A stretch of 62,836 bases of DNA, counting the filler, from Chrysochromulina tobinii (Eukaryota): the NCBI GenBank assembly GCA_001275005.1. It is 6 parts of 6 records of this genome, joined end to end, with 100 filler letters (N's around TTAATTAATTAA, not from the genome) between each part and the next. Parts side by side here need not be neighbours in the genome. Positions count along the whole stretch, not along the records: positions 44,367 to 60,010 come from JWZX01000544.1; 5 more parts are not named here. The stretch is one strand, 5' to 3'. The position numbers were made by a program, and so were the translations under genes. How positions within the stretch are numbered: the first letter of the stretch is position 1; every line of letters begins with the position of its first letter. Below the pieces are notes generated by a model, which saw nothing but the letters and a program-made list of their open reading frames with translations, did no database searches and was not told the DNA's origin. Positions 29,248-59,770 of this stretch are shown one piece after another.

Positions 29248-29458
29248 GGGTTCACATCAGGAAACGCGGACATACCAAGGCGCTTTCTCTTCATGGAGTT
29301 TTTTTCTCTTTCTCGAACACGAGGCTTTGTCGTCCTGGGACGTTCTGGGGCAATCACAAGTGAATAGGTCATGTCGATCGCGTGGCCCGTGGTTGGGGGT
29401 GCTGTCGTTTCCCAAGGATCACTGGTTCGTGTCAAAAACACTATGTCCCCTCCCCCCG

Positions 29459-38816: not shown

Positions 38817-40655
38817 CTAAAACTCCAACACAAATCCACCCCGGTCCTTCACCGCGTTGACCTTCAGCGCCTCCGCGATCGCCTTGGCACCCTCATCCCC
38901 GATGCTGTTCTGCCAGAGGATGAGCGTGGTCAGGACCGCGTTGACCTTCAGCGCCTCCGCGATCGCCTTGGCACCGTCGTCGCCGATGGAGTTGTAGCTC
39001 AACTCCAGGTTGGTCAGGACCGCGTTGACCTTCAGCGCCTCTGCGATCGCCTTGGCACCGTCGTCGCCGATCTTGTTACGATAGAGGGACAGCTTGGTCA
39101 AGACCGCGTTGACCTTCAGCGCCTCCGCGATTGCCTTGGCACCCTCAACCCCGATGTCGTTGCCTCTGAAGTCGAGAGTGGTCATCACCGCCGTGACCTT
39201 CAGCGCCTCCGCGATCGCGATGGCACCCTCACCCCCGATGTTGTTGCCTCCGAGGTTGAGGGTGGTCATCACCGCGTTGACCATCAGCGCCTCCGCGATT
39301 GCCATGGCACCCTCATCCCCGATGCCGTTGATCATGAGGAAGAGGGTGGTCAGGACCGCCATGAACTGCAGGTCAGACGCGATCAGGATGGCGTCGGCGG
39401 GTTGTAGGCCCTGAAACGAGAAGTCGGCCGCCGTCTGGTCGCGCGTCATGCCCGAGAGCATGATTCCCTTCTCAGCGCCCATCTTGGCGAGCTTCTTGGC
39501 TGACTCAACGTCGAACCTGTTTTTGAGCAAGTTGCAGCTCTTGAGCACCGACGTGGCAGGAATGAGAGAGGCGACAAGCATGGCCGCAGGCACGTGGAGC
39601 CCTCTATCGGACAAGTTGAGCACCTCGACGCTGTCCTCGCGCAGTTCCTGCACCGGAATGCCGCAAATGACTCCTAAGCCCGCACAGGCAACGGCTGCGA
39701 TCGTCAGCCTCAACGGTGGCTCTCCCTCGCCTGAGATGCAGCTGTTGAGAGCATACTTAGCAGCACCATGTAGCAAGGAAGGGCGGTGCCAATCGCCCAT
39801 CCCGCATTGCAGATCCGCGGCCCGAACGGCGGCCACGTCCACCACATAGCCGTAGCCATGGAGGCGCGCAAGCCCAGGCAGCATCCGCCCCGCTAGGGCC
39901 GCGTCCCCGGGCCGGCCGGCCTCGATGAGCTGCTCCACGTCAAGGTCGGTGATCTCATCCAGACGTGTGGGTACTGGCTGCCCGTCGCGGCGGCACAGGC
40001 GCGAGCAGAGGACACGTTGCGCCAGCGCCCGCCAAGATCGAGTCACGCCCTTGAGCTCGGCCAACGTGGCCACGTCCACCAGGCCCAGAGCAGCCTCCAT
40101 GGCGTCCGCCGAGAACGAGGGCTGCTGCAGCGGCTCGGGCGGTAACGTGGAGCTGGCCGGCTGCTGCGGCGCCTCAACGCCTTCCGGTACAAATGCCGGC
40201 TCGACGTGTGGCGGCGCGTGCTCCTCCGCGCTGTCAAAGTCACCACCCGCGCCGACGAGCGCGCAGAGTTCAGGAGCACGCTTGCCGTTGAGTTGGGAGG
40301 CGATCGCACGCTGGATGTGCTTGAGCGCGATGGGGGCGTCGATATAGAGGGCGTCCTCGATGAGCTGGAAGAGCTGGAAGAGCGAAGGCTCGTCAGAGCT
40401 CGGCCACGTGTAGTCTGGGTCATTCAGCTTGCACACCATCTGAAGCGTCGAGGCCGTGATCGTGGGCATGGGATAGATGCCATCCTCGGAGGTGGCGAGA
40501 TCCATCAGATCCTTCAAGGTGCCCATGAGTCGGGCTGCATCGCGCAATAACGTGACCTCCTCTCCGTCTCGCGCTCGCACGCGTATTTGCTCCTCGCGTT
40601 TGGCCTTCTTCGCCGTGGGCGCCACCACCTGCTCCTCGATCGACGTCGCACGCAT
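38817..40655 (-). CDS. Skp1-like + F-box-like + RI-type LRR (NLRC3-like) fusion protein
   Basis: IRVRARDGEEV...TLKDLM...PTITASTL (Skp1 POZ); LFQLIEDALYID...IASQLNGK...DFDSAEE (Skp1 C-terminal); ALGLVDVATLAELKGVTRSWRALA (F-box-like); 28-aa repeats IGDEGAKAIAEALKVNAVLTTL. Confidence 0.82.
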   Translation of the reverse strand: MRATSIEEQVVAPTAKKAKREEQIRVRARDGEEVTLLRDAARLMGTLKDLMDLATSEDGIYPMPTITASTLQMVCKLNDPDYTWPSSDEPSLFQLFQLIEDALYIDAPIALKHIQRAIASQLNGKRAPELCALVGAGGDFDSAEEHAPPHVEPAFVPEGVEAPQQPASSTLPPEPLQQPSFSADAMEAALGLVDVATLAELKGVTRSWRALAQRVLCSRLCRRDGQPVPTRLDEITDLDVEQLIEAGRPGDAALAGRMLPGLARLHGYGYVVDVAAVRAADLQCGMGDWHRPSLLHGAAKYALNSCISGEGEPPLRLTIAAVACAGLGVICGIPVQELREDSVEVLNLSDRGLHVPAAMLVASLIPATSVLKSCNLLKNRFDVESAKKLAKMGAEKGIMLSGMTRDQTAADFSFQGLQPADAILIASDLQFMAVLTTLFLMINGIGDEGAMAIAEALMVNAVMTTLNLGGNNIGGEGAIAIAEALKVTAVMTTLDFRGNDIGVEGAKAIAEALKVNAVLTKLSLYRNKIGDDGAKAIAEALKVNAVLTNLELSYNSIGDDGAKAIAEALKVNAVLTTLILWQNSIGDEGAKAIAEALKVNAVKDRGGFVLEF

Positions 40656-40807: not shown

Positions 40808-42507
40808 ATGGGAGCTGCTGGGATGTCTCTTCGGGTTGTCTCCGCGCTGCTTGCCACCGCAGCAGGCCACGCCGCTGACGACTCTTGCGTGGGCCACTGC
40901 GGTAGCTGGGCGCAGGACTGCTGGTGCAACGACGGTTGCGAAGCTCACCACGATTGCTGCCACGATTACGAGGCGGTGTGCGGCGGCTCTTCTTCGGCTG
41001 CTGATCTCATCAAGCTGGATGACTCTACGGCACGCTGCCTAGATGGCAGCGCGGGTGCCTACTACTGGCGCGAGGGCAAGGACCCCTCTTTAGTCCTCGT
41101 ATTCATGGAGGGGGGTGGTTGGTGTTACGACCCGGCCAACTACCCCACACAAGAGGGCACGATCTCTGACTGCCGATCGCGATCACAAACCTCCTTGGGC
41201 TCGAGTCGCTCGTGGGCTTCGAAGCGCAGCTTTGACGAGGGTATGCTCGCGTCAGATGTGAGCACCAATCCCGTCTTCCACAACTATTCCCTCTTGTACA
41301 TGCCGTACTGCGACGGCACCTCGTTCGCCGGCAACGTGAGCGGCACCGTGTCGGGCTTGTTCTTCCGAGGGCTGCAAATCCTCGAGGCGACCTTCGTGCA
41401 CGCGATGCAGCACACGAGCTTCGCGCGCGCATCGCGAGTCGTGCTCAGCGGCGGCTCGGCGGGCGGCACTGCCGTGCTGTGGCACGCCGATCGGATCGCG
41501 CGCCTGCTCACGACGAGGCGCCAGCTCGGCGACGTCGAAAGGGGCAAAAGGGGCCGAGGCGGATCGTCAGTGGAGGTGCTCGCGCTGCCCGACGCAGGCT
41601 TCTTCCTGGACCTCCCGACGTGGCAGGGCGTGGACGTGTGGCCGGCGCAGATGCGCTCGATGGCATCTGTGTCCAACAGTTACAGCAGTCTGCATGCGGG
41701 CTGCCTCGCCAAGTACGCTGCTGAGCCAGAGCGCTGCCTCTTCCCACAGTACTATGCCGAGCTGATCGAGACACGCACGATGCTCGTCCAGAGCCTATAT
41801 GACTCGAGCGAGCTCTGGTACACGCTGATGCTCGACTGCTGCGCGGGCCCGTGCTCGGGCTACCCGACATGCAAGTCGGGAGGCACGGAGCGCTCTCAGA
41901 TGTTCGCTTTGCGCCAGCAGCACATCGATGCGTGGAGGCCTCTTGTGAATCGCTCAGGTAAGCCATCGGAGTGGGAAAAGAGCAGCGTCAGAGCGTCCCT
42001 CCGTGTGGGCAATCAAACGGTCGATCGCATGCAACAACATCGAGCATCTGACTGCATCTGATGGCGGCGGAGCCACTGATGACTTGCATTGCCTCTGATG
42101 AGTGCCCGTGACTTGCAGTGCCGCTGATGATGGTTTGCACTGATTGCCACTGATCATTGCCACTGATGATTTGTGTATGCACGCCCTACTTATTGTTTAC
42201 CGGCGCACTGCCATCAATGATTGTCGCGGATGATGATTGCCACGGATTGCCACAGTTGATTGCCACTGCATGATTGCCGCTGGGCGATCGCCACGAATTG
42301 ATCGCAGGTAACGGCGTCTGGGCAATCGCATGTATCGAGCACACGCTCACGAGCGCACATTGGACAGACCCTCTCTGGGAGACACCGGCGCGGAGCGGCA
42401 ATACCATAGCGGCCGCGGTGCGGCGCTGGTTGGATGGAGGGGCAGAGGTGCGCCTGGAGGACTCCGTTGAGTGGCCTGCCAATCAGCCCTGCAGCTCGGC
42501 AGACTAG
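40808..42507 (+). CDS. Secreted pectin acetylesterase/Notum-family esterase with N-terminal somatomedin-B domain; exons 40808-41957 and 42308-42507
   Basis: SMB SCVGHC...CWCNDGCEAHHDCCHDYEAVC; CLDGS, EGGGWC, PYCDG, GGSAGG, DAGFFLD. Removing a GT-AG intron at 41958-42307 adds the family-like end NGVWAIACIEH...WPANQPC. Confidence 0.9.
41958..42307 (+). other. Spliceosomal intron (350 nt) rich in TGATGA/TGATTGCCAC units
   Basis: CAG|GTAAG donor and CGCAG|GTAAC acceptor; phase-1 removal restores the frame. Confidence 0.85.
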
Positions 42508-44366: not shown

Positions 44367-46657
44367 GCCCGCGCCGCCCGCCGCGCCGCCCGCGCCGCCC
44401 GCCGCGCCGCCCGCGCCCCCGCGTTCGGCACTCGAGAGTCTTGCGAGCGCACTCGCAGACGCGATGGCCGCCTCGGCCGCCGCCACTGCCGCCGTGGCTG
44501 CCCTCGCAGCCGATCCAAAACCGGTGTCCGTCCAAGGCGGCGGCGGCGGTGGCGGTTGGCTGCAGCTCTGCAACATTGTCTTGGTGCCACTCGGAAGCGC
44601 ACTGGGCGCCGTGGTGAGCGCCGTGGTGGGCGCCGTGGTGGGCGCCGTGCCGAGCGCCGCACTGGGCAGCGCAGCGGGCGATGAGGGCCGCGGCAGCGCG
44701 GGCGCCATGACGTGCATGCCGTCGGGCTCGGGAAGGCTTGTCGTAGCCTCAAGTACCGGATCCACGGCCGCGCTCACCGCCAGTAGCGTGGCCCACAGCG
44801 CCGTCTTGAGCTCCTGCTCGGCCGCGAGCGCAACCGCCATCTGCGCATTCACCTCACACAGCCGCGGCATGGGCGACAGGTCATAGGCGAGCCGAGCCGC
44901 CTCCATCTCGACGTAGAGCTCGCGCCGGCACCGTTCGATCTCATTCTCAGCGGTCGCATCGCGCGCGCGCAGCACCGCGACCTCGGAACGCAACGCCGCC
45001 TCGCGCGCCTCCGCGGACGCGCGCACCTGATGAGGGAGGCCATCAGTGGTCATCAAAGGCCATCCGAGCCATCAGAGGCAATCTGGCGCGCACCTCGCGC
45101 AGCTCGGCATGGACTTCGCTCAATGCCGAGGCTGCCTTGCGCCGCACGTCGAGCACCGCCTCTGCCGCCGCGCTCTCAGCGCGCCGAATCTCACGGGATG
45201 CCTCCGCACGCGCCTCTGCTGCGCGTCGTTCGACCTCATTCTCGCAGCGCTCTCTGTGGCGCGCGCCCTCGGCCTCGAGCTCGTGGGCGTGGCGTGAGCG
45301 CACCTGATGAGGGAGGCCATCAGTGGTCATCAAAGGCAATCAGAGCTCGTGGGCGTGGCGTGAGCGCACCTGATGAGGGAGGCCATCAGTGGTCATCAAA
45401 GGCAATCAGAGCTCGTGGGCGTGGCGTGAGCGCACCGCGGCCTCAGCCTCTTCTATCGAGCGCAACCTGGCAAGCGCCACGTCGCGCTCGGCCTGCGCCT
45501 CGAGGGTCCGGCGCTCCCAGCCGTTACACGACTCGAGTGCGCCCATGCTCGCCTCGTGCGCCTCGCGAAGCCGTGCCTCCGCTGCCTCCGTCGCGGCACG
45601 CTCGCGGCCCATGGCCTCGCGTTCGCGCCGCGCCTCGTCCTGGGCACGCCGCACCTCCGCCTCATGGCGCCTGCTCGCTTCGTCGGCAGCGCGCCCCTGC
45701 TCCTCGGCTTGCTGCCGCTGCTGCTCCGCCCGGTGCGAGCGCTCCTCGGCGTCACGCGCCTTCTGCTGAGCGTCGTCTCGGGCGATGTGTGCCGTGCGCA
45801 CCTGATGAGGGAGGCCATCAGTGGTCATCAAAGGCAATCAGAGCGTCGTCTCGGGCGATGTGTGCCGTGCGCACCTGATGAGGGAGGCCATCAGTGGTCA
45901 TCAAAGGCAATCAGAGCGTCGTCTCGGGCGATGTGTGCCGTGCGCACCGCCTCCTCGAGCGCTCGAATCCGCCCGTCGTCCACCTGCCGTTGCTGCTCGA
46001 GCGCCTGCTGCTGCTGCGCCTGCCGCTGCTGCTGCGCCTGCTGCTGCTGCGCCTGCTGCTGCTGCTGCGCCTGCTGCTGCTGCGCCTGCTGCTGCTGCTG
46101 CTCCTGCTGCTGCTTCTCCTGCTGCTGCGCCTGCTGCTGCAAGGCTTGCCGCAGCTTGGCCTCCGTCTCCTCGAGCTTGGCCTCGAGCTCGCGTCGGTGC
46201 GCCTCCTCCTCCTGCTTCGCAGCGGCGGCGGCTTTGCCTCGTGCTCCCGGCAGCGGCGGTGGCACGTGCGGCGGAGGGGACGTACTCGCGCTCACGCTTG
46301 CCGTCGCCGTCGCCGTCGCCCCTGCCGCCGCCGCCGCCGCCGTCTCGGCCAGCAGCATCTCCACCGCCGCGCTCTGTGCCCTCGAGGCGGCCTCGGAGGC
46401 CGAGCGCAATCTCGCCTCGCTCTCGCGCAATCTCGCCTCGCTCTCGTGCAATCTCGCCTCGCTCGCGCGCAATCTCGCCTCGCTCTCGCGCAACCTCGCC
46501 TCGATCTCGCGCAATCTCGTGCCCTTCTCGGCGAGCTGAGTCTCGTACTGCTGGGCGCGCTCGTCGCTCGCGACGAGACGCGCTTCACTCGCCTCAAGAT
46601 CGCGCGAGATCGCCTCGAGATCGAGGAGGGCCTTGCGCAGCGCCTGCTGCTGCAGCG

Positions 46658-46689
<32 letters not shown>

Positions 46690-46705
46690 GCCTGCTGCTG
46701 CTGCG

Positions 46706-46743
<38 letters not shown>

Positions 46744-48428
46744 AAGGCTTGGCGCAGCTTGGCCTCCGTGTCCTCGAGCTTGGCCTCGAGCTCGCGTCGG
46801 TGCGCCGCCTCCTCCAGCTTCGCCGCGGCGGCGGCTTTGCCTCGCGCTCCCGGCAGCGGCGGTGGCACGTGCGGCGGAGGGGACGTACTCGCGCCGGCCG
46901 ACGGGCCGCGCGTCCCGCCCGTCCCGCCCACGACGACGCGCTGCCGCTCCGTGCCGAGCTCGACCAGCATCGCCTGCGCCTGCGCCTCGAGCGCAGCGTC
47001 GCCAACGTACCTCCCCACCGGCGCCAGCGGTGGCGGCGGCGTGGCCGTGGACGCCGTGGCGGCGGCGGCGGCCGCGCGCTGCAGCTGTGCGCGCATCGCC
47101 GCCACTTCTTCCTTGAGAGCTGCCTCCCTCGCCGCCTGTGCCGCGTTCAAGGAGGCCTGAGCCTGCGCCTCGGCAGCGCTTGCTGCGTCACCGGCGGCGG
47201 CAGCTCCGATGCTCATCTTGCGGGCTAGCCGCAGGTGCTCAGCCAGTTTTTCGCCCATGACGCGCTCGTCCTGAAGCGCCGTCTCGAGCCTCTCGACGTG
47301 AGCGGCGCTTGCATGCAGGCTCGAGGTGAGTCCGCTCGACTCGACCTGCAGAGCCGAGAGGCTCGAGTGGAGCTCCGAGATCCGAGTTTCGTTCATCTCG
47401 ATTTGGCGCTCGAACTCCGCCTGCTGCGAGGCCGCTGCCGCCGTGCTCTGCAAGAGCTCCTCGGTCTTGACGCTCAGCATGCGGCGCTCCCGTTCGAGCT
47501 CGGACTGCAGCTGCTGCACCTCCACGACCTCGGACTGCAGCTCCTCACGCAACGACGCCTCGGACTCTGCGTGGCGTACGGCCGTTGACGCCTTGGACTC
47601 CAACTCGGAGGCGAGCGTCGTCCTGAGCATGCTCGCCTCGTGCGCGTGTGCGTGCGACTGGTCGAGCGCCGCTTCGAGCGCCTTGCGCTGCTCGAGCGCG
47701 CCCTCGCGCGCCTCCTTCCTCGTCGCCTCCAGCTGCGCCCGTAGCGCATCCAGCTCCAACCGCGTCCCCTCGGCGCTCGACCGCTGCCGCTGGAGGAGTA
47801 TCCTCTCCTCGCTCAGCTCCTCGCGCAGCGCGGCGAGCGCGCGCTCGTGGTGCGCGCGCTCGCGAAAGAGCTCATCCTTGGACGCCTCGAGCGCGCGCTG
47901 CAGCTCGGCCGTGCTCGCCTGGCGCTCCTTGAGCGTGCTCTCGGCCTTGTCCCGCGCCTCCTCCACCTTCCTGAGCTCCTTCTTGAGGTCGTGGAGCTCC
48001 CGGTGCCGCTTCTCCTTCTCGCGTTCCAAGTCCTCGGCGGCCGAATTCTTCATGTGTTTGAGCGCCTCGTGCAGCTTCTGGATCTCGAGGTGCGAAGTGT
48101 CGCGCAGCGCCTTGATGTCGAGCTGCGCCGATGCAAGCTGGTCACGGAGCACCCGAGTGTTGATCTCGTGCGTATGATCGCTTACGAAGACCTCCGTGCC
48201 CGCAGGGTGATCGAGCGCGTCAATACTCTGCTTGACGAGCGCATCGAGAGCGTCGCCATCGCTCGTGCTCCTCCGGTGTCGGTGCTTACGCCGGTGCTCG
48301 GCGGGTTGCTCCGGCTCCGCCACGCCGAGAAAGTTGGCAAGCGCGGCCGTGCCAAACGACGGCGCGCTCGGCAGAGTTCGGCCGATCCGCGAGAATATGC
48401 CAGCAGCAGACGGGACTGGATCAGCCAT
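44367..48428 (-). CDS. Long coiled-coil/polyQ protein; exons 48428-45948, 45801-45436, 45303-45094, 45026-44367 (3' truncated)
   Basis: Four consecutive E/R/A/Q-rich ORFs join in frame (EEA|VRTAH, EAA|VRSRH, LRE|VRASA) once three GT-AG introns are removed. Confidence 0.82.
45027..45093 (-). other. Introner-like intron (67 nt)
   Basis: GTGCGCGC (8-nt copy of the downstream exon start) ... GCCTTTGATGACCACTGATGGCCTCCCTCATCAG. Confidence 0.85.
45304..45435 (-). other. Introner-like intron, tandem 2 x 66 nt
   Basis: Unit = 27-nt copy of the downstream exon start + 39-nt module TGATTGCCTTTGATGACCACTGATGGCCTCCCTCATCAG. Confidence 0.88.
45802..45947 (-). other. Introner-like intron, tandem 2 x 73 nt
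   Basis: Unit = 34-nt copy of the downstream exon start + the same 39-nt module. Confidence 0.88.
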
Positions 48429-48991
48429 GGCGATGGGCAATTCCGCGTCAGACCGTCAGTCCACACCGAGAGAAGGGTTTGCGTCGAGTGTGCCGCCGTT
48501 TTTGAGCGCTATCGTGGGCACTATCTGTATTGGGCGTCACGTGTGATCCGGGGATCGCGTTCCTTTATCTTCCGTGAAAACGAAAGCACACCGAAATCAC
48601 AAAGTCAGTCCATGTTTGTGACAAGTCAAGTCAGGTCAAAGTCCTGTGTTTCTGTGTGTTCAGACTGTGAACGTCAACACGACAGACGCGACAACCGGTG
48701 CTACAGCAATGTTACTGCCCGACTGTGTGATAAAGTCAAGACTCCTTCAGAAGTCAAGTCCATTGACAATATAAATCAACTGGGCTGTTACTTAAGGTTT
48801 CTCTATCTCGTGTGGCTCACAAGTCTTACAATTGAAGATGGCAATGGATCACTCACCCATCTTGGATGCCCCGTTGTGAAAAGTTCGCGTCAATTCGAAA
48901 CAAAGTTTCGTCGCCGAGAAAGATTCTTTCGCGCCGGCGCTGGCGGAGCAGAATGCAGGGGGAGGAGAATTGAGTACACACCAACAGCGTG

Positions 48992-50671
48992 ATGTCGCCC
49001 ACTGTGGCCGTCCTGGCTTGCGCGTCGGCGCTCATTGGCGCTCCGCGGATGATCACCAACCGTCTCTTGGCTCCTCGGATGGGAATCGGCGACGGCGCGG
49101 CGGGCACCGCTGCGGGAGGTGGTGGCGACATCTATGGAGGCGGCGACTCCGAGCGCAACGCACAGCTTGCGGCGCTGCTCAAAATGTTTACAGCGAAATC
49201 AGATGCACCCATCCCCGAGTCGGAGGGTTCGGAGCAGGCGACAAAGGAGGTCGATGAGGCAAAGCGACTCGGGCTGAGGCTTGACATGCCCTTGTGCCGG
49301 TACTCGTGGTGCATCCTGCCAGGGCAGCAGATCGCCATGTCCGTTTGGCAGCCCCAGTACACGCTCATGTTCAGCACGCTGCTGGGGCAGCCCGGCCCGC
49401 ACGAGTACTTCCACGTGCTTCTGCCGGGCGGCGCCGAGTCGCTCGGTCGGGAAGGCTACGAGCTCGAGCCCGGTTCCAAGTCCAGTCTGGTTGGCACTCT
49501 GATGCGCATCGCGTACGCCAAGCGCAACGAAGACTCCACGCTCACGCTCGTCGTCCAGGGCCTGGCGAGAGGCGTCGTGCTACGTCCGACCCAGGTGCTG
49601 CCCTATAGCCGCGGCGACGTGCAGCTGCTCCCCGACGGCGAGGCCATGCGCTCCGCGGCGCGCGTGTCACAGCGCTTCCTCGAGGCCCAAGCTGGATGGG
49701 AGCAGCCTCAGACGTGCGACCCCGAGGACACCGTCCGACCCCGACCAACCCCGAAGAGCGCTCTCGACGCGGCATACAGGCGACGACTCTGCATCGCCAC
49801 GGCAGTGCGTGAGGCCGAAGGCCTATTCGCATACGAGTCCACCGACACGCCCGCCCTCGACCCGCCCGGCAGACGCGGAAGCGGCCAGATTGCGCAGCTC
49901 ACGCAGTTCAACGCGAGCGCAGCGGGCGCGATCGCCGCGGCCGCCGCGGCGTCCGCTGCCGTGCTGGCTGAGATGCCTATGCCGCAGAACGCGCCCATAG
50001 GAGGCGCTGCGGCTGACGAGGCGGGCTCAGCGCCCAAAGAGGAAGTGACAGCGCTCAAGGAGGAAGAGGCGTTCGCTTCACGGCTAACGTACCGAGGTCG
50101 GGTGCTCGCGGACCTCGACGCGGCGGTGGCGAGCGCCGAGGCTGAGACGAGGCTCAACTTGCGCTGCGCGGCCGAGGCGGAGGAGCTGCGCACCATACGC
50201 GAGCTTGAGGCGACGACTTGGATCGAGTTCGATGACTTGCTGCAATCCCTTCGCATGCTTCCGCCGGGCGGCTCACCCTTGCCATCGCGCTCGACCAGCC
50301 TTCCCATCCCCACGCAGCTGCTCGCCCTCTGGCCGCCGCCGCCCGAGGGCGGATGGCCTGTCACGTGCCGGCTGGCCGAGATTGCGGCAGGGTTGCAACA
50401 GGCGATCGACAAGGCAGACTCTGAGACGCGATTCTTCGTACCGGTCGCGATGAGCTACCCGGCCCGCAAGCGCGCCGAGCGACTCTCGTGGATGATTTGG
50501 AGCACCATCGGCGACCAAAAGGTGGGTGTGAATGCGTACACGGGCTCGCCGTTTCAGGCGCTGCTCGAGGCGGAGGGCACAGCGGAGCGGCTACGCATGG
50601 TGCTCGAGAAGCTGCGGGCGATCAAGGACGAGGCAACGGGTGGCACCAGAGATGGCTCGAGAGATACCTGA
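48992..50671 (+). CDS. LON N-terminal (substrate-binding)-like domain protein, probably plastid-targeted
   Basis: MPLCRYSWCILPGQQIAMSVWQPQYTLMF, VGTLMRI, LVVQGLAR, QALLE...ERL; signal peptide ending ASA followed by a transit-like segment. Confidence 0.7.
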   Translation: MSPTVAVLACASALIGAPRMITNRLLAPRMGIGDGAAGTAAGGGGDIYGGGDSERNAQLAALLKMFTAKSDAPIPESEGSEQATKEVDEAKRLGLRLDMPLCRYSWCILPGQQIAMSVWQPQYTLMFSTLLGQPGPHEYFHVLLPGGAESLGREGYELEPGSKSSLVGTLMRIAYAKRNEDSTLTLVVQGLARGVVLRPTQVLPYSRGDVQLLPDGEAMRSAARVSQRFLEAQAGWEQPQTCDPEDTVRPRPTPKSALDAAYRRRLCIATAVREAEGLFAYESTDTPALDPPGRRGSGQIAQLTQFNASAAGAIAAAAAASAAVLAEMPMPQNAPIGGAAADEAGSAPKEEVTALKEEEAFASRLTYRGRVLADLDAAVASAEAETRLNLRCAAEAEELRTIRELEATTWIEFDDLLQSLRMLPPGGSPLPSRSTSLPIPTQLLALWPPPPEGGWPVTCRLAEIAAGLQQAIDKADSETRFFVPVAMSYPARKRAERLSWMIWSTIGDQKVGVNAYTGSPFQALLEAEGTAERLRMVLEKLRAIKDEATGGTRDGSRDT

Positions 50672-50999
50672 GGGTGCGGAGGCTCACCCCGAGATGAGGG
50701 GAGCAGGGGAAGGTTGGCGAGAACGGCAGAAAGGCCCACGCCTCACGTCACCGCGGAGCGACGGGTCGACTACTAGGCAGAAGACAGTCCGGTCTCGAGA
50801 TCTCGCGATGTATCCGGATATGCGATGGCCTAACCCCAAATACAAGCGTAACGAAACTGCCATTTTCGCACCGGTTCTCCATGCGGTTCTCGCTCTGGTT
50901 TTTTTTCAGACGAACCGCGCTCACCTCGTTAGGAAGCTTACGCTTAATACTACAGTTGGCGTAATTATGTTATGATGAATGATCCACCACACGACCACA

Positions 51000-51111
51000 T
51001 CAGCTCCAACACCCGTGTTGCTAGAACACCGTACACGCTTAGTATGCCTGGGGGAGACCCCCTCGCCACGTGTACGCTGCCGGTAGGCGATGTTTACTTA
51101 CTTACTTACTT
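51000..51111 (+). mobile_element. Tiny retroposon-like insertion with (ACTT)n tail and 9-bp TSD
   Basis: ACGACCACA at 50991-50999 and 51112-51120; internal stem CGTACACG/CGTGTACG; ends TTACTTACTTACTTACTT. Confidence 0.65.
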
Positions 51112-52603
51112 ACGACCACAGTCCTTTGTGTCAAGAGACAGTGAGAGTGACCCCCTATAAAGCTATTTGCTATAAACTAAGTCCTAGCTAACAGCTAACT
51201 CGACTTCGCCTGTTCACACATCGTCATCGACACTCCTCCCTCCTCCGCACCTGCGCACTCGTACGGCATAAGGGCATATGCACTGCCATCATATCACGCT
51301 GATGTCAGATGTGTCACATCTTAGGCTAACCGCTGCCGTCTCGTGTTCCCCCACACACCCAGAGCACACGCGGAGGTCGTGGGCTCGTGGCTATCCGGAC
51401 ACGCCCCTGCCGAGTCGAAACTAAGTCGAAACGTTCATTTTTGACGCCGCCCTAACGCCGCCCAGTCCCGCCCAGGAGGCTCCCCCAAATTGTTCCCCAC
51501 AATTCACGATTTTCACGTCTGCACCGCATTCTTGCAGGACCAGGTTGCACGTTCTGCAGGCAGCCCCCCAAATAAATTGCTGTCACTTCTCGTCATCGAG
51601 TCTGGGCGTCCGTGGAGCGGCGCCAGTCGGCTCGTCGATGACGACAGAAAATTGGCCTGGAGCAAAAAATATCTTGACCAAAAGGGTAGTGGTCTACTTT
51701 TTTTTTTAGAAGCTGGGCCCATCCCTACTTCCCTACATGTACACCTGTTTGGGAATCGAATGCCTTGATGTTCGCCCTTGAGCGTGAATTGGGAGGTTGG
51801 TTACAGACACGGGTTGGTACTATAGGGGTCTTGACTCGTGTGAACTGCGTACATGTAGCCCCTACCTACCTAGGCCCGCCCGTAGGAGCGAGATCGCTCA
51901 GTCGCGTTGCGTTCCCTTTTTCCCTTGCGTTGAGCCGTTGACCCGTCAGTAAGCGAGCTCGAGCGTTCTCTTACGGTGCTCGTGTGTGTCGCGTCATGCA
52001 TGCGGACCCCGGAACCAGTCCAGTGTGTCCGGTACGTTTTGTTACGGGTAAGGGGGTAGAACCGGGTAACCTGGTCAGACCTACTATTGTTCTGTACAGT
52101 ACCTCTTGTATGTTTGTTGAAACCGGCATTTTGTTTATTTTTGAGGGTTTCGCCATGGAAGTCGTGTACACCCAGCCGCAGCCGCCCACAACTTTGGCGT
52201 CTTCGGTGGCGCGCCTGCCTCGATGGCCAGGTGGACTCGGGGCTGCGCCCCCCGTCGCACTCGCCGCCGATCCATGGTGAAGGAGCTGTGTGCCTCCGAG
52301 GCGGCGTGGCCGTCCACCGGCTCGTCCACCCCCGAATCCACCTTTCCGGGGACGCTGGCCACGCTCCTGCTGCCGGCGATTGACGCGTGGCTCGTGCCCG
52401 CGCTGGAGGCTTCCCCTCTTGTCGGGGCGCTGACAACCCCTCTTCCGTTCACGATGGCAACGCTTGCTCTCGTCTGCCTGGTCCAGGACTTCGCGGCACG
52501 TCCCACCTGGGCGCTCGCCTCAATCTCTGGGTCGCCGCCCAAGGGCGCTGGTGCTGTGAGTGCCACCTTTGCGTCAAGCCGACCCTCTGCTCGGCGCGGC
52601 TCC

Positions 52604-55600
52604 ATGTGCCGCTTCGGATCTGCGCCTCGACTTGACCGCGTTGTCTTTCTCCTCGTGGCGTTCGGCTTCGTGGCCATTACCAACGCGCAGCTCTGCACGG
52701 AGACGTGCTTCGGGTACGCCTCAGACGGTTGCTGCGACGATGGCGGACCCGGAGCTGAGTACGCAGATTGTGTGCAAGGCACCGACTGCACCGATTGCGG
52801 CCCTCGAGAGCATCTTCCGTCGCAAACGCCACTGTATTTGCTACCGCCGCCGCCGCCGCTGTCGCCGTCGCCGCCGCCGCCGCCGCCGGCGCCGCCAGCA
52901 CAGCCTCCCAGACCAGCGCAGCCTGGCTGGCACGTCGAACGCCAAGGCCGCAGGCGTTACCCCCCCCCACGGGACTATGCGCAAGAGCTCCAGCCGGGCG
53001 GCCAACCGACGGCGTTCGCACCACCAAACTGCTCGGCACCAGGGCGGGTGGGCTGCGTTGCGATGCCCAGGCCAGCCCGTGCCAAGCCTGCAGCAGGCGT
53101 TCGAGCTGCGCTCTTGCCACCTACGTGCACCTTGTCCTCCGAGCCGGGATGCCTGCGCCTCCCCAAGCCTTTGGTGAGGATGGGGGACGAGCTGCTAGAC
53201 AGCGGCGAAGATATACTTCGATTCGTGGACAGAGGCGATAGAATAATGGCGCTGCTGACCGGCGGTTGGGCGAGCACATACTCAATCGTGGCGGCCGACA
53301 TGGACGGCGACGGCGACCTCGACGTGCTGCTTGGGAACTATGACAGTGCCAGCCGAGTGCTCCTCAACGCGGGCGACGGCACCTTCCCGACGAGCATCGA
53401 GCTGCCCGGCGGCATTGCGTACACGAGGTCGATCGCGGCGGCGGACGTGGATGGAGACGGCGACCTCGACGTGCTGCTGGGCATCGAAGGCAGTGCCAGC
53501 CGAGTGCTCCTCAACGCGGGCGACGGCACCTTCCCGACGAGCATCGAGCTGCCCGGCGGCATTGCGTACACGAGGTCGATCGCGGCGGCGGACGTAGACG
53601 GCGACGGCGACCTCGACGTGCTGCTTGGGAACTATGACAGTGCCAGCCGAGTGCTGCTCAACGCGGGCGACGGCACCTTCCCGACGAGCATCGAGCTGCC
53701 CGGCGGCAGCGCGGGCACGAGGTCGATCGCGGCGGCGGACGTGGACGGCGACGGCGACCTCGACGTGCTGCTTGGGGTTTCCGGCAGTCCAAGTCGTCTG
53801 CTTCCCTTAGTCAGATGCTCTCAGACTGACACTGCACGCAGCCACTTTGGCCACGGATGCGTCCACTGCCCCGCTCCGATCTCACGCCGAGACGACCATT
53901 TCGATATCTGCTACGAGTGCGAAGAGCACACGGAGCTCAACGGCCGCGGCGAATGCTCCTCCTGCAAGCCGGGTTACGATCGCTCCTTGGGAGCCGCCGA
54001 GTGCACTGCCTGCCCGCGCGGCAAGCGCCAAGGAGAGGCTGGCACACTCTGTGTCGACTGCTCCCCGGGCACGTACGCTCCGAAAGACGGCCTCTTTGGC
54101 CCCAAATGCTTGGATTGCGAGCAGGGCAGCTTCTGCCCGCCAGGCGCCGCGGCACCAGTGCCGTGCCACGAGGGCAGCTTCTCGAGCGCGACCGACCTCG
54201 CGCGCGATGAGCAGTGCCCACACGCGCTGCCTACACCACCTGCTGCTCCGGTTGCAGCTGCGCATGGACAACCACAAATTGTAGCGGCCCTCACCTCCAG
54301 TGTTGCACTTCTAATTGTGCTTCTCGTGGTGCTTGCTTGCTTTCGGCATCGGAGCAAGCGCAGACGGGCGGCCACCCAACTGCTTGACAGCAATTCCGTC
54401 TCCATGCACGCGTTGTCCTCCATGCACGCGTTGTCCGGTCGGGTGCCCAGGCTCCAGGAGGAGCGCCCCACGAATTCGCTCCAAAGCTCCTTGGTGGGCT
54501 CCGACGAGCCGACGCACCTCGAGGTGGTGGACTTCTCGACGCTTACGATGGGCAGGCCGATCGGCAAAGGTGGCTTCGCGACCGTCTGGCTTGCGCGGTG
54601 GCAGGGCAACGACCTCGCCGTTAAGGTGCTCAACACGGAGCATGAGAACATCGATGCGTCGCCTGCGCAGGATGAAGCCATGCTCCGGGAGGTGGCCATC
54701 CTGCGTCGCCTGCGCCACCCGTGCATATGCGCCCTTTTCGGCCACATGCGGGTTGACGAGCGACCCGCGCTCGTCCTCGAGTACATGGCTGGCGGCTCTC
54801 TCGCCGCATACCTCTTCGATCCTAGGCAAGCTACTTTCAACGTGGACCCCCCCCGGGAAGCCGTCCAGGCCAGCGCATCGAGCCTTTCGAGCGGGGTGCG
54901 CATCTTCCGTAGCCTCTTCCGTCTCCACAACGCCGCCGCAGCGCCGGTGATGGGGCCGCCGCCACGCCCGCACCTGGCCGGCATGCTCCCGTGCGAGAAG
55001 AAGATTCGCTTCGGCGTTCAGCTGGCGAGCGGGCTGTGCTTCCTCCACTCGCACGGCATCCTGCACCACGACGTCAAGACGGAGAATGCACTGCTCGACG
55101 CGAACCGAACGGTATGCAAGCTCGCCGACTTCGGGTTGGCGAGCCTCAGCCTCAAGTACGCGGATCGTAAAAGCAGGAATTCGGTGAGCGCGGGGGGCAC
55201 ACTGCGATATATGGCACCCGAGAGATTGGAGGAGTCGGAACGTCACGCGCGCAAGAGCCGCGATCGTGGCGACGGTCGTGGCAGCAGCAGCGGCAGCAGC
55301 GGCAGCCTGGGCCGCACGCTCGTCAGCTTTGAGGATCGTGCGGATGTCTATGCCTTTGCACTCTTGCTTTGGGAGCTCACGCATGAGCGCCGCGCCTTTG
55401 AGGGGATGACGGGGGTAGCTGCCGCCTTCGGCGCCAGCCAGGGGCTTCGGCCACAGTTCTTGGAGCCTCATCTCTATGGGATGATCCCAGCGCTCACGTG
55501 CGAGTGTTGGGCGCAGCGTCCAGAGGACCGCCCGAGCATGAGCACGGTGCTCGCGAGGCTCGACGCATGCATGCAAGCCCTCTCTGCGACACAAGGTGTG

Positions 55601-55789
55601 GGCGACTCGTCGGTGCAGAGCTCGCCCCCAAGCCGCCTATCCAGCTGCAGCGACGAGTCGTCCACCGCTGCTGCAGTACTTTTCGACCATGAGCAATTTT
55701 CGACGAAGGTGGGAGGACATGGCGAGGACTTCGAACTGTGGGTGGAACCCGAAAGAGAGACAGAGACAGGGAGACAGAGAGTGCAATGA
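52604..55789 (+). CDS. Receptor-like TKL kinase with FG-GAP/VCBS repeats and Cys-rich ectodomain
   Basis: Signal peptide; CCDDGGPG; four 49-aa (147-bp) units AADVDGDGDLDVLLG; CxxC repeats (CSPGTY, CEQGSFCP); TM helix; GKGGFA, AVK, HHDVKTEN, DFG, YMAPE. Confidence 0.92.
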   Translation: MCRFGSAPRLDRVVFLLVAFGFVAITNAQLCTETCFGYASDGCCDDGGPGAEYADCVQGTDCTDCGPREHLPSQTPLYLLPPPPPLSPSPPPPPPAPPAQPPRPAQPGWHVERQGRRRYPPPRDYAQELQPGGQPTAFAPPNCSAPGRVGCVAMPRPARAKPAAGVRAALLPPTCTLSSEPGCLRLPKPLVRMGDELLDSGEDILRFVDRGDRIMALLTGGWASTYSIVAADMDGDGDLDVLLGNYDSASRVLLNAGDGTFPTSIELPGGIAYTRSIAAADVDGDGDLDVLLGIEGSASRVLLNAGDGTFPTSIELPGGIAYTRSIAAADVDGDGDLDVLLGNYDSASRVLLNAGDGTFPTSIELPGGSAGTRSIAAADVDGDGDLDVLLGVSGSPSRLLPLVRCSQTDTARSHFGHGCVHCPAPISRRDDHFDICYECEEHTELNGRGECSSCKPGYDRSLGAAECTACPRGKRQGEAGTLCVDCSPGTYAPKDGLFGPKCLDCEQGSFCPPGAAAPVPCHEGSFSSATDLARDEQCPHALPTPPAAPVAAAHGQPQIVAALTSSVALLIVLLVVLACFRHRSKRRRAATQLLDSNSVSMHALSSMHALSGRVPRLQEERPTNSLQSSLVGSDEPTHLEVVDFSTLTMGRPIGKGGFATVWLARWQGNDLAVKVLNTEHENIDASPAQDEAMLREVAILRRLRHPCICALFGHMRVDERPALVLEYMAGGSLAAYLFDPRQATFNVDPPREAVQASASSLSSGVRIFRSLFRLHNAAAAPVMGPPPRPHLAGMLPCEKKIRFGVQLASGLCFLHSHGILHHDVKTENALLDANRTVCKLADFGLASLSLKYADRKSRNSVSAGGTLRYMAPERLEESERHARKSRDRGDGRGSSSGSSGSLGRTLVSFEDRADVYAFALLLWELTHERRAFEGMTGVAAAFGASQGLRPQFLEPHLYGMIPALTCECWAQRPEDRPSMSTVLARLDACMQALSATQGVGDSSVQSSPPSRLSSCSDESSTAAAVLFDHEQFSTKVGGHGEDFELWVEPERETETGRQRVQ

Positions 55790-56821
55790 GATTTCGTGTG
55801 AGAGAGAGTGTGTGTGCCCCCTCCCCCTCGAACGAGTTCGGTTCGGGACGTCGGACTCGGTGCCGGCTGTCGCTGTCAACGCCTGTAGTTGCTAGCGCGA
55901 GGTACAGCAGTATTTGTGCATGTGTTTGTGTAAGCGCAGCGCGCGCGCGCGCCGCCACACGTGTGCGAGTGAGTCGGTCCTCTGCGGTGAACGGTCGTGC
56001 TGCCGCGGAGCTTGTCGAGCCGGAGCAACGAGCCGAGAGGGCAACTGATATGATTTTGCGTGTAAGGACTACAAGGTGCTGAATCTAGAATCTTCTACCT
56101 GTGTGCGTGTCTTGAACGAGTAGGAGAACGCAGAACCCGACCGAACGTCGTTGGGCGGTTGCGCTTGCGGCCGGTCGGGTTCGGGGTTGCGGTTCGCGTT
56201 CGGTTTCGATCGGTTCCTATCGTTGCGTAGTCCCCGGAGGTTAGCTGCGGGGTTGAACTTCAACTCCGGCCAGCCATGCCACGCCGAGCCGCGCGGGCTC
56301 CCCAGCGACGAGCGAGCAGCCACTGGCGCCGAGCGGGGACTCGCGCGCATCTGCGTCGGTCGTGGGTAACGCTAACGGCAACGCTGGTCGGATATGCTGC
56401 TGTCGGTCACGCGACGGGACGGTCCGGCTCCGGTCTCGCTCAAACAAAATCACCTGTCGCACGTCGGTCTCAGCACAGTGTTCATTGAAACACCCGACCA
56501 TAGTGCATAGGGTTCAGAACTACCTGAGTAGTGATGAACCCTCCCTAAGGTCAAAATCTCGCGCAGCCTCACATAAGCCTCACAGTGCTCACGCTACCCA
56601 AACGTCGAGTTTTTCTAGAATGTGTTTTCATGTGTTTATTTCTTCAGCTACAACAATTAACATAAGTAAACATACAGCTCCGCTTACACGTTACAGGTCA
56701 GAGATACAGCTGTCCAGCTGTAATGGGCCTAGGAGCTGTGTCTCCCCCAGCTCGCCACGTGTGCGTTGCCGAAAGGCGTGTGTACTGTACTTACTGCAGC
56801 TCATACGATGTATGGACGCGG

Positions 56822-58660
56822 CTAAGTTCTCCGAGGCTGAGACTTAGATGATGGCCATGGCGTTGGCCGCTGGTCGTGATTGCAGCTGTGATGCGAGCGT
56901 CCCATACCATCAACCTCGAGAGCGTTCTCGTCGTCGTTCTCTTCCTCGTCATCATGTTCCTCCTCCTCGACCTCGTCATAGACGACGTGCCGTTGCTGGC
57001 CGCCCGGCTGCACCCTCCGAGTGCTAGCTCGAGAGGTGCGGTCGCTAAAGCCACGAGTGCGCGCACCACGACCGAGGTCGCGCCCAAAAGGACGCGAGGG
57101 AGCGCCCCGGGTCCAGCTCAGCCCATGACACAGCCCTAGGCCCACGCAACAGCAACTACACATCATGACGACGCTCGCCAAGACGGCCGGGTGGATGGCT
57201 GGGCCGAACGTCATGAACGCCGCGAACCCCCCAGGGTTACCTAAAGGGCTGTCCGCTCCTGGCAGTACACCCGTGGTCATCGGGATCGCTCGAGGGACGT
57301 TACGAGGGGCGGGGTTTGTAGATGGGTCGGCGACACCGGGAGCCCACCCGACGGCACCAGCAAGCACGCCGCCATCAATGCTGGCCACGACCTCGTCGTA
57401 GGCTAAGAATGGCTGCCCCGCGATGACCATCGGCAGCTCTGTGAACGCATCTTTAGGAATCCTAGGAGCCGCCGCAGGCGATGAGAAGAGTTGCGCTGCC
57501 ATCTTGGGAGGTTGCGGAGATTGGCTCGGAGATCGGATCGGAGGCGGAGGCCGGAGTGGCGGCGATGGCAAAGGCGAGAGGTGGACTGGTGGGAGGCGCT
57601 GCGGGGCGCCGCACACGGGGCATCCATCGCACGCACCTCCCGCCTTGCCACAGAACGTCACCTTGCACCAGCTCTCACATCGCAGCTGCACGCCCGGCGC
57701 ATACCCCTCGCAATACGCGCATGCGCGGCAGGCGTTGGCTGTGCAATCGGTCGGCCGGTTACACCAAGACGAGCAGCGGGGGCAAAAGGAGCACGCCGAG
57801 CACTTGCAGAACGCGCCTGTCGCATACACACGAGTTCGCCCACACAGTATTCATCAGTGCGGGTGTCATTCAGTGCTTCTTCACAGTATCGTCACAAGTC
57901 GCTTGTAAGTCGCTTGGGCTCCTCGCGTGCATTCTCGCGTGCACACATGAGAGTACGACGTGAGCAGTGCTGGTGGATCTATCTGCTCTCAAGGGTCTGC
58001 TCTGTTGGGAGCGCGCACAGTTGTGTACGTCCTTGGCGGAGCCGGTGCACCACGACTCGCACGTGGAGTGTGCTAGGTCGAAGCGATCCTTGGGCGTGCA
58101 CTGCTGGCGCGTCGTCGGAGCGCAGCTCGCGCACCCCTTGCATTTGCAGAACTGACAGCCGTCGCCACTGTTGCACCATGGTTGGCACGTCTCGAACCTC
58201 GGATCGTCGATCGCATCGGGATGAGGCGCGCAGGATCGTTCCGGATGGTGCCCGCGACAGAATTCGCATCCTTTGCATTTGCACGTGCCGCAATGCTCAG
58301 CTTCTGAGCACCAAGATTGGCAGCCTTCATAGTCCACATCGTCAATCGCCGTTGGCGTGCAGGGCAGGCAGAGGCTGCAATCCCGACACTTGCAGTGAGA
58401 ACCTACAGTGCCACAGAACTCAGAAGGTCAGCAGAAGACAAAGAGCGTGCGCGCAGCGTGCGAGACGCACAATGAGCCGGTTCTGAGCACCAGTCTTCGC
58501 AGAGCGCTACTGACGTGTCATCCGGTTCATTTTGTATGCAAACGCCGGCGCTAAGACCTCGGTGCGAACTGAAAACCTGTGCTCCTGAAGAAGGCAGCTG
58601 GTGGCTTGCGGCGGCTGCGACAGCAAAAGACAGGATCCTCCTCGAAAGCACGGCCCACAT
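56822..58660 (-). CDS. Type I membrane protein with repeated CxxWC...CxxCxCxxCxxC modules; exons 58660-58471, 58402-58019, 57816-56822
   Basis: Two GT-AG introns (58403-58470, 57817-58018) each split a Cys codon and link three ORFs; signal peptide, Pro-rich stalk, TM helix, acidic tail. Confidence 0.75.
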
Positions 58661-59521
58661 GGAATGTTTTGGTGCAGGGCTCTCGTCCGCAGACGTGACG
58701 CTCGACTCCCCCAGGTTGTCGGTTCCGTTTTCATTCAAGTTTCTTTGGTGCATGCAAACTTAGTTTCAACGTTACAACGAGCTTCATCGCGTACTTCCCT
58801 CGCACCTCGCCACGCCCCGGTCCGCACTCGCTCGCGCGCGCGCGCCCTGTGCGCAGTGGTAGGGTGGGGTTCTAACAAGTCGATTACCCGGGGGGGGACA
58901 CAACATTTGTGGGGAATGACTAGCTGAGAAATGAAGTATAAGCCCACGTGGCATGGGCAACCCGATCCCCCACGACGAAAAACCTTTCACATCTGCACCG
59001 TTCGCCGATTATCTACTCTACTACATGCACTACATGAGTGTTGAGTCATGGCTCCGTCGCGTGTCGGGTCTGTACCCCGGAAAGCGGAAATCATCATCAC
59101 GTCATCTTTAAACAACCGAACAGCGGTCTCGACATGGATGATGGGACTCGACCAAAACACACATCCATTTGAGGCTGAACGACCTTCAGGAACGCTCGAC
59201 GGCCGGTGCGCTCGAGTGCCCTGTGTGAAACCGGAAAGACTGAGCGACCGAGAAGCCACCGCGCGCACCGAGCATGGTGCTGCCGATTCGTCTGTGGGAG
59301 GGGTCAGGGCGCCGGGGAGCGGGTTCTCCGGTGCCGCGTTCCGCCCCCCAATGCCAATCAGCAAAATTTGGTGTGTCCACGACGCGGTCGGCGCACGGCG
59401 GCCCGACGCCCGCCAAGGCGCCCGCGCACCATCAAGATAGGGGGTCCTGCCAATGTGTAGGTAGCTCGGTCCGGTTCATGGTCCGGTTACAAATCGAATC
59501 CGTCTCTCTCAAGATAACTGT

Positions 59522-59697
59522 CAAGAGCCGTACAATGGCACACCACAGTCAGGCAGTTGGCACCATCCACCATGGTTGGCACACCCATGCTCCACTCGGT
59601 CACTAATAGATCACTAAGCATGGCCCGCACGAACAAGAGCCGTACCATGGCACAGACAGGCAGATGGCACACCCATGCTCCACTCGGTCACTAATAA
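59522..59697. repeat. Imperfect direct duplication
   Basis: CAAGAGCCGTAC.ATGGCACA and GGCACACCCATGCTCCACTCGGTCACTAATA each occur twice. Confidence 0.75.
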
Positions 59698-59770
59698 GCA
59701 TCTTATCGATGATAACCACGACTCCGGGCGCCGGAGGGGTGCGCCGTGGGGGGGGACTGCGCGATGGCGA

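What the first reader, a model, noticed from the sequence alone, without database searches (positions are those of the whole stretch)
45027..45947. Intron-generating element: an exon duplication supplies the donor and a constant 39-nt module supplies the acceptor
Seen: three introns within 920 bp of one gene, all phase 0 and all at G|GTGCGC (before Val-Arg). On the - strand each starts with an exact copy of the first 8, 27 or 34 nt of the downstream exon. Each ends with the same sequence: GCCTTTGATGACCACTGATGGCCTCCCTCATCAG in all five copies, and the full 39-nt module in four. Removing them restores the coiled-coil frame with no scar. Known: described introners are mostly non-autonomous DNA transposons with TIRs and short fixed TSDs, or hairpin elements. 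Inference: here there are no TIRs and the duplication is long and variable, which fits target-primed reverse transcription or staggered-break repair at cryptic donor sites. The mobile unit would be only a branch-point/acceptor cassette. I cannot tell whether this has already been described for this lineage.
Basis: partly seen in the sequence, partly recalled or inferred. Interest (0 to 1): 0.9.

Follow-up and report, generated by a model that had tools for sequence, protein, structure and literature searches.

The report
Self-copying splice-acceptor cassette makes introns
In a gene of a haptophyte alga, three inserts that are likely introns each consist of a copy of the next exon's start plus a short repeat cassette shared with many other places in the genome, and the cassette was likely copied from the neighbouring intron by ordinary DNA repair, which would be a way to multiply introns without a transposon.

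Summary
Three GT..AG inserts (146, 132, 67 nt) interrupt one minus-strand coiled-coil frame. Each carries stops, starts with 34, 27 or 8 nt of the next exon and ends in one 34-mer. Two are tandem doubles; another allele has single units. The cassette is not constant: it is a 10-nt repeat array (a branch-point-like motif per unit) plus a fixed acceptor tail. It is a genome-wide family (486 contigs of one DNA run; at least 71 different flanks), but this exact 42-nt variant was found only in this gene (7 of 7 loci). All 3 exonic G|GTGCGC sites are occupied, 0 of 15 other G|GTR sites. Both long duplications end at GCTC, in register with GCTC in intron 3. One allele has a further unit matching its nearest neighbour. 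Best reading (0.5): microhomology-guided DNA template switching copies a neighbour's acceptor to an upstream cryptic donor. Not shown: splicing (six RNA runs gave no junction) and an empty allele, so gain is inferred. It fails the published operational test for introners (similar at both ends), which may explain why catalogues list none for Chrysochromulina tobinii, the likely host. New variant of a known kind; interest 0.7.

The parts
45948..48428 (-). Exon 1 of a long coiled-coil, Gln/Ala-rich gene (827 codons from the ATG); no Pfam family and no homologue found
45802..45947 (-). Insert 1 (likely intron, 146 nt): two identical 73-nt units, 45947-45875 and 45874-45802, each = 34-nt copy of the start of exon 2 + 39-nt cassette end
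   Evidence: single unit in allele L003
45875..45917 (-). Acceptor cassette, 43 nt including the GCTC entry microhomology: three 10-nt units with CTGAT/TTGAT at -37, -27, -17 from the 3' end, a short pyrimidine run, then CAG
45436..45801 (-). Exon 2 (366 nt); its first 34 nt, ending in GCTC, are the duplicated piece
45304..45435 (-). Insert 2 (likely intron, 132 nt): two identical 66-nt units, 45435-45370 and 45369-45304, each = 27-nt copy of the start of exon 3 + the same 39-nt cassette end
   Evidence: single unit in L003 and L004
45094..45303 (-). Exon 3 (210 nt); its first 27 nt, ending in GCTC, are the duplicated piece
45027..45093 (-). Insert 3 (likely intron, 67 nt): 8-nt match to exon 4, five partly decayed 10-nt units and the acceptor tail; GCTC at -43 in register with inserts 1 and 2; inferred oldest copy and template
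   Evidence: extra 69-nt unit at this site in L004
44367..45026 (-). Exon 4, open to the end of the contig (N spacer at 44366)
41958..42307 (+). Likely older relative on the neighbouring contig: a 350-nt GT..AG stretch with decayed 10-nt units (TGAT 3.4 per 100 nt against 0.24 background) and CAG|GTAA at both ends

Best explanation
The three inserts are likely spliceosomal introns, likely made by microhomology-guided DNA copying of a neighbouring intron's 3' end into an exonic site that already reads like a splice donor. Inferred steps: (1) a nascent or broken strand that has run 20-35 nt past an exonic G|GTGCGC and ends in GCTC anneals to the 10-nt array of a nearby intron; (2) it copies the array and acceptor through CAG|GTGCGC; (3) those 7 nt reanneal at the upstream G|GTGCGC, so the exon piece is made twice. 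A tandem duplication between two GGTGCGC sites followed by collapse at GCTC gives the same product. The first copy gives the donor; the cassette gives branch point and AG; splicing would leave no scar. Each product rebuilds CAG|GTGCGC and the array, so it can be copied again, probably stepping upstream (3 to 2 to 1). The long direct repeats then slip into tandem doubles, each unit a complete GT..AG, and would also allow precise loss. Rarer copying between genes would give the genome-wide family. No element-encoded enzyme is needed.
For: Shown: anatomy and open frames. 3 of 3 exonic G|GTGCGC sites occupied, 0 of 15 other G|GTR sites; they are the only identical triple among 18 sites, 1 in 816, counted after the fact. 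Both long duplications end at GCTC, about 1% of exon positions, in register with GCTC at -43 of insert 3; 41 of the last 43 nt match. Exact 42-mer only in this gene: 7 of 7 loci among 241 million records, while the family is large: 486 contigs laid on 241 bases, likeness 8/36/263/179 at 99+/95-99/90-95/under 90. Allele L004 has an extra 69-nt unit at site 3 with a 22-nt duplication; its tail shares 38 nt with adjacent insert 3 but 34 with insert 2, and its 9-nt filler matches the opposite strand 196 nt away (weak). Unit number differs between alleles. Three sites lie in 921 nt and no other copy of the 34-mer in the window; Poisson P at most 6e-4 for 100-2000 sites per 59 Mb. The same tandem build is seen at 5 of 6 other loci read from antisense proteins and in 5 of 12 shown rows of table 5c. 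Local capture with 2-9 nt microhomology, filler and duplication is a described repair signature (PMC2671141, section 7).
Against: No spliced junction in six RNA runs; depth on the exons was only about 1-8, and no canonical junction was listed anywhere in the 15.6 kb laid. No intron-free allele or orthologue: L003 has all three inserts, L004 sites 2 and 3, X18 the site-2 cassette, and no homologue of exon 1 was found, so gain and its direction are not polarised. Insert 3 differs from inserts 1 and 2 at 2 of 43 nt, so it is not a perfect template. GTGCGC may simply be the best donor in this lineage, which would favour an RNA-level explanation of site choice. The L004 extra unit starts AT, not GT, and rests on one contig with a chimeric-looking end. 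In P0006 the base after the AG is C in 2 of 4 modules, so not every copy sits at a donor. The protein search used a two-module query, which favours tandem hits. Local copying alone does not explain the spread between genes.
Confidence: 0.5

Rival explanations
1. RNA-templated origin. A lariat cut from the cryptic exonic donor to the neighbouring intron's acceptor, or a reverse transcript of partly spliced pre-mRNA, is put back at the donor site and then shortened at GCTC; or a non-LTR reverse transcriptase primes at a staggered nick.
For: It explains why the duplication starts exactly at a strong donor and why the tail matches a neighbouring downstream intron. Variable duplication length is typical of target-primed insertion (established knowledge). 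Non-LTR-derived introners exist (PMC12130899, section 6).
Against: No poly-A/T tail. Microhomology at both junctions and a filler resemble the proximal repair class rather than the retroposed class in PMC2671141. Reverse splicing is described as rare (PMC3443670 passages). P0006 copies follow AG with C, not a donor.
Confidence: 0.2
2. No new positions: old introns are remodelled. Slippage across an existing acceptor junction makes [old intron][exon piece + cassette], the old first part is then lost, and gene conversion keeps neighbouring cassettes alike.
For: L004 site 3 has this intermediate shape. No empty allele was found. Insert units are identical between the window and L003 (0 of 206 nt) while exons differ at 17 of 893 (Fisher p 0.055), which hints at conversion. 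A decayed array lies in a long, old-looking intron.
Against: Needs three old introns all followed by the same 7-mer, and precise loss of the first part at two sites. The bases after the AG are compatible with GT at 5 of 6 other loci, more than old introns usually show (recalled), though the query favoured this.
Confidence: 0.15
3. A non-autonomous transposable element (Replitron/HUH-like, or SINE-like with a 10-nt repeat tail) inserts from dispersed master copies with variable target-site duplications.
For: Large dispersed family. Replitron-1 makes variable-length duplications, inserts in one orientation and carries donor-flank sequence; one Replitron locus is reported in C. tobinii (PMC10288648). 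The tail folds into a 6-bp hairpin.
Against: No terminal repeats and no fixed 5' end. The unit is about 40 nt, against about 52 nt of alignable sequence at each Replitron end. The gene-private variant and the clustering do not fit dispersal from a master copy. The hairpin is weak (-4.3 kcal/mol for the 42-mer).
Confidence: 0.1
4. The inserts are unspliced repeat insertions in a dead gene, or assembly artefacts.
For: No RNA junction was seen. The protein has no homologue or family.
Against: The same inserts occur in independent assemblies and in diverged alleles. All three have GT..AG ends and branch-point-like motifs, and the flanking frames are open over 3.7 kb of exon sequence.
Confidence: 0.05

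Closest known systems
Introners (Gozashti et al. 2022, PMC9860276; 2025, PMC12130899), especially those that carry the 3' splice site and take the 5' site from the target-site duplication (Symbiodinium, Fig. 2B legend)
   Same: A reused sequence supplies the acceptor, the duplicated target supplies the donor, the mRNA would be unchanged, and there are many copies per genome.
   Different: There the duplications are described as 3-9 bp and copies are alike end to end. Here duplications run 8-34 nt, only the 3' end is shared, the body is a 10-nt array, there are no inverted ends, units come in tandem and the closest copies are neighbours. The marine Chrysochromulina introner of Fig. 2C has the opposite polarity (carries the 5' site, 4-bp duplication).
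Intron gain by tandem genomic duplication (review PMC3443670; Hellsten et al. 2011, PMC3265369)
   Same: A duplicated exon segment gives a scar-free intron whose 5' part copies the next exon.
   Different: In that model both splice sites come from a latent AGGT in the duplicated exon. Here the acceptor and branch point are imported from an existing intron, so the event can repeat and form a family.
[quoted passage not shown] 2009, PMC2671141)
   Same: Direct repeats at the junctions; a nearby donor; 2-9 nt microhomology; filler.
   Different: Those are one-off events with unrelated inserts. Here one ready-made acceptor cassette is reused and each product rebuilds the template.
Replitron-1 of Chlamydomonas (Craig 2023, PMC10288648)
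   Same: Variable-length duplication, fixed orientation, sequence matching the donor's downstream flank.
   Different: No direct terminal repeats, no Rep gene seen, far shorter, and not reported to make introns in the passages read.

Membership tests
Introner (operational definition of PMC9860276) | Similarity between introns reaches near both splice boundaries | tested here: not met
   5' ends are site-specific exon copies; only 34-43 nt at the 3' end are shared; definition read
Introner (operational definition of PMC9860276) | Not a low-complexity or short-repeat sequence | tested here: not met
   The body is a 10-nt array; such families were filtered out by hand
Introner (operational definition of PMC9860276) | Many copies in unrelated genes of one genome | tested here: met
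   486 contigs in DNA run X11; 71 contigs with unlike downstream flanks in three loose-end rows; six further loci in related records
Introner (operational definition of PMC9860276) | Spliced out of the mRNA | tested here: inconclusive
   Frame restored and stops inside; no junction in six low-depth RNA runs
Introner (operational definition of PMC9860276) | Insertion shown against an empty orthologous site | tested here: inconclusive
   No empty allele among L003, L004, X18; no homologue found
MITE / TIR DNA transposon | Terminal inverted repeats | tested here: not met
   Insert ends are not complementary; only an internal 6-bp hairpin in the tail
MITE / TIR DNA transposon | Short target-site duplication of fixed length | tested here: not met
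   8, 22, 27 and 34 nt
Non-LTR retroelement (target-primed reverse transcription) | Variable-length target-site duplication | tested here: met
Non-LTR retroelement (target-primed reverse transcription) | Poly-A or simple-repeat 3' tail and a partner LINE | tested here: inconclusive
   No poly-A/T in the sequence; the 10-nt array could be read as a tail on the antisense strand; no genome was held to look for a partner
Replitron | Short direct terminal repeats and about 52-nt alignable ends | tested here: not met
   The shared part is 34-43 nt in all and has no fixed 5' end
Replitron | Autonomous Rep-HUH partner with the same ends | not testable with these tools
   No genome held
Tandem-genomic-duplication intron | Intron begins with a copy of the downstream exon | tested here: met
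   34 and 27 nt; 8 nt is within chance
Tandem-genomic-duplication intron | Acceptor comes from a latent AG in the duplicated exon | tested here: not met
   Sites 1 and 2 are preceded by CG, not AG; the acceptor is the foreign cassette
Repair-mediated proximal duplication | Donor within 5 kb, microhomology of 2-9 nt, no poly-A | tested here: met
   Matching cassette 210-366 nt away; 4 nt at entry and 7 nt at exit; criteria read

The most novel reading that the evidence does not exclude
A transposase-free, self-templating intron family: a branch-point array plus acceptor tail that host repair copies to exonic donor-like sites, creating scar-free, stackable and precisely reversible introns at hundreds to a few thousand sites of a haptophyte genome, still changing between strains, and invisible to current introner screens by their design.
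Probability: 0.4. Interest if true: 0.85.

Novelty: new variant of a known kind. Interest (0 to 1): 0.7.

Why it matters
How new introns arise in bulk is a long-standing question, and bulk gain is currently credited to transposons. If the best reading holds, host DNA repair plus a reusable acceptor cassette can also build a large intron family. The cassette tolerates 5' truncation because every 10-nt unit carries a branch-point-like motif. Screens that demand similarity at both intron ends and drop short-repeat families would miss it; one catalogue lists 0 introner families for C. tobinii. The case is directly testable with public genome and RNA data, and allele differences show the sites still change. 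The tandem units would also be very short natural recursive-splicing substrates.

Tried and rejected
No whole genome was held, and the records behind five loci could not be searched, so no genome-wide table could be made. RNA runs X12-X15 on 44367-60010 and X16, X17 on 44960-45200 gave no junction at these sites; cover was too thin, so this counts neither way. A 19-mer in prokaryote genomes gave 9 hits without arrays, about what chance gives by my estimate (roughly 4). Viral contigs gave 0, 13, 0 and 0 hits for four patterns; the 13 had no arrays. Exon 1 found no homologue among 7994 candidates and none of the four exons hit Pfam. Three Atlas requests did not complete. Four look-ups of earlier scan findings gave nothing relevant. 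Rejected: phase 0 as evidence (15 of 18 comparable sites are phase 0); the 8-nt duplication as evidence on its own; summed depth as a true copy number (the tool warns against it). PMC12480563 and PMC3298513 (passages) and PMC4580454 (passages) said nothing on this repeat. The Emiliania genome paper was not held.

Full report
Context. The window is a string of contigs joined by N spacers; the finding lies on the contig 44367-60010. GC is 63.4%. A neighbouring intron-free gene (48992-50671, Lon substrate-binding domain) is held letter for letter in NCBI, UniRef and EukProt; the only homologue listed with a species name is from Prymnesium parvum at 47% identity. So the host is most likely a haptophyte. 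Chrysochromulina tobinii, whose genome is given as 63.4% GC and 59 Mb (PMC4580454 passages), is my inference, helped by recall of this repeat in its predicted proteins; no call names the species. No whole genome was held.

Observation. On the - strand a gene starts at 48428. Its frame is interrupted at 45947-45802 (146 nt), 45435-45304 (132 nt) and 45093-45027 (67 nt). Each insert begins GTGCGC, ends CATCAG and holds in-frame stops; the four exons are each open in phase 0. The inserts share 34, 27 and 8 nt with the next exon. The terminal 34-mer occurs five times against 0.00 expected. Inserts 1 and 2 are perfect doubles of 73 and 66 nt, so each unit is itself GT..AG. The 8-nt match is within chance, and 15 of 18 G|GTR sites in this coding sequence are phase 0 anyway.

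The cassette. It is a 10-nt array plus a fixed tail. CTGAT or TTGAT motifs lie at -37, -27 and -17 in inserts 1 and 2 and at -46, -27 and -17 in insert 3; these fit the general branch-point consensus CTRAY (established knowledge), so any 5' truncation would leave a usable branch point (inference). There are no terminal inverted repeats, only a 6-bp hairpin in the tail; the 42-mer folds at -4.3 kcal/mol as DNA.

A genome-wide family. Laying DNA run X11 on 44960-45200 at 85% likeness placed 486 contigs. Summed depth was 77,100 over the tail against 38 on the unique flank. The tool warns that this is no copy number, and overlapping contigs inflate it, so about 2,000 is a ceiling; three loose-end rows alone hold 71 contigs with unlike downstream flanks, a floor. 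Likeness classes were 8, 36, 263 and 179 contigs at 99+, 95-99, 90-95 and under 90. Five of 12 shown rows of table 5c, read by eye, have cassette, a spacer starting at or just after GT, then cassette again; their downstream exons are not visible. Antisense translations gave 8 proteins: one is this gene, two are one locus, leaving six other loci. In 5 of 6 the sequence after the AG recurs between tandem cassettes, with compatible runs of 20-47 nt against a null 95th percentile of 18. The query had two cassettes, which favours such hits. In P0006 the base after AG is C in 2 of 4 modules, so some copies are not at donors.

A gene-private variant. The exact 42-mer of inserts 1 and 2 matched 7 stretches in 241 million metagenome records, and all 7 are this gene or a fragment of it. 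Three sites lie within 921 nt and no other copy of the 34-mer lies in the window; for 100 to 2000 random sites in 59 Mb, two further sites within 1 kb have P of 1e-6 to 6e-4.

Junctions. All 3 exonic G|GTGCGC sites carry an insert and 0 of 15 other G|GTR sites do. They are the only identical triple of 18 sites (1 in 816, after the fact). This 7-mer is also what each insert's 3' junction reads, so it can serve as the return homology. Both long duplications end at GCTC, which ends about 1% of positions in exons 2-3, and insert 3 has GCTC at the same distance from its AG; the last 43 nt match at 41.

Alleles. L003 differs at 17 of 893 exon nt, has single units at sites 1 and 2 and identical insert sequence (0 of 206; Fisher p 0.055). 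L004 has a single unit at site 2 and a further 69-nt unit at site 3: a 22-nt duplication starting AT, a 9-nt filler, then a tail sharing 38 nt with adjacent insert 3 and 34 with insert 2. The filler matches the opposite strand 196 nt on, which is weak on its own. L004 is one short contig whose left end looks chimeric. No allele lacked an insert at a covered site, including the X18 record over site 2.

RNA. Six metatranscriptome runs, kept as contigs, showed no junction at these sites. Depth on the exons was about 1-8, and no canonical junction was listed anywhere on the 15.6 kb laid. Splicing is therefore inferred from the frame only.

Mechanism. Shown: structure, site choice, microhomologies, gene-private variant, family size, allele variation. 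Inferred: a strand ending in GCTC a few tens of bases past G|GTGCGC switches to a neighbouring intron's array, copies through CAG|GTGCGC and returns at the upstream 7-mer; or a tandem duplication between two 7-mers collapses at GCTC. Insert 3, with the longest and most decayed array, would be oldest and the spread would run upstream. Direct repeats of 27-34 nt then slip to doubles and could excise precisely. I give this 0.5; an RNA-templated route 0.2; remodelling of old introns 0.15; a transposon 0.1; unspliced or artefact 0.05.

Comparison. PMC9860276 (passages; supplement searches) describes introners with 3-9 bp duplications, some carrying the acceptor and taking the donor from the duplication; its marine Chrysochromulina example has the opposite polarity. 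Its pipeline needs similarity near both boundaries and drops short-repeat families; this family fails both. C. tobinii appears there only in the genome list of a file that was cut when stored, and PMC12130899 lists it with 0 families (12 of 14 files searched; passages and section 6). Tandem-duplication and break-repair gain are reviewed in PMC3443670 (passages) and shown in PMC3265369 (abstract). Proximal repair capture with microhomology, filler and duplication is in PMC2671141 (abstract, section 7). Replitron-1 shares variable duplications (PMC10288648, passages and section 9 part 1) but not the ends. It works like an acceptor-carrying introner; it is not a member by the published test.

Novelty. 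Ten searches found no description of this build or repeat; for most hits I saw only the listing. Not seen and possibly relevant: the appendix PDF of PMC9860276 (too large), its online consensus files, files 13-14 of PMC12130899, the Emiliania genome paper (not held; I recall it reporting 10-11 bp tandem repeats enriched in introns) and subscription papers. I rate it a new variant of a known kind, interest 0.7; the bolder reading, a transposase-free self-templating intron family, has probability 0.4.

Noticed in passing
window 41958-42307 (+): A 350-nt likely intron with decayed 10-nt units and the same 7 letters (CAG|GTAA) at both junctions; probably an older member of the family.
   Followed up: partly
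L004 about 100-120 (as oriented), L005 contig end, P0003 C-terminal end: Three records break off inside the site-1 duplicated piece (19 and 23 nt kept in L004 and L005) and join unrelated DNA; L005 and P0003 seem to share the few letters at the join. Chimeric assembly or a captured second copy; unresolved.
   Followed up: partly
window 45027-45947 against L003: Insert units are identical between alleles (0 of 206 nt) while exons differ at 17 of 893; hints at conversion or recent spread (p 0.055).
   Followed up: partly
window 46100-46290 and 46720-46890 (-): Exon 1 holds an internal duplication of about 60 codons (STSPPPHVPPPLPG...KLRQALQQQ) followed each time by a Gln-rich run.
   Followed up: no
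window 28888-29253: Non-coding-looking tandem array, period 62, 5.9 copies, 93% matches.
   Followed up: no
window 52223-55789 (+): Intron-free 1188-aa receptor-like kinase with FG-GAP repeats (147-nt tandem) and a Tyr/Ser-Thr kinase domain; the FG-GAP part and 59505-60010 draw high summed depth in RNA runs, i.e. multi-copy sequence.
   Followed up: partly
window 38851-39371: 84-nt tandem repeat, 6 copies, with the look of 28-residue leucine-rich repeats (label from recall).
   Followed up: no
window N runs at 18350, 28434, 33820, 44267, 60011: Five spacers of two 44-N runs around 12 letters mark contig joins; neighbours across them are not linked.
   Followed up: yes
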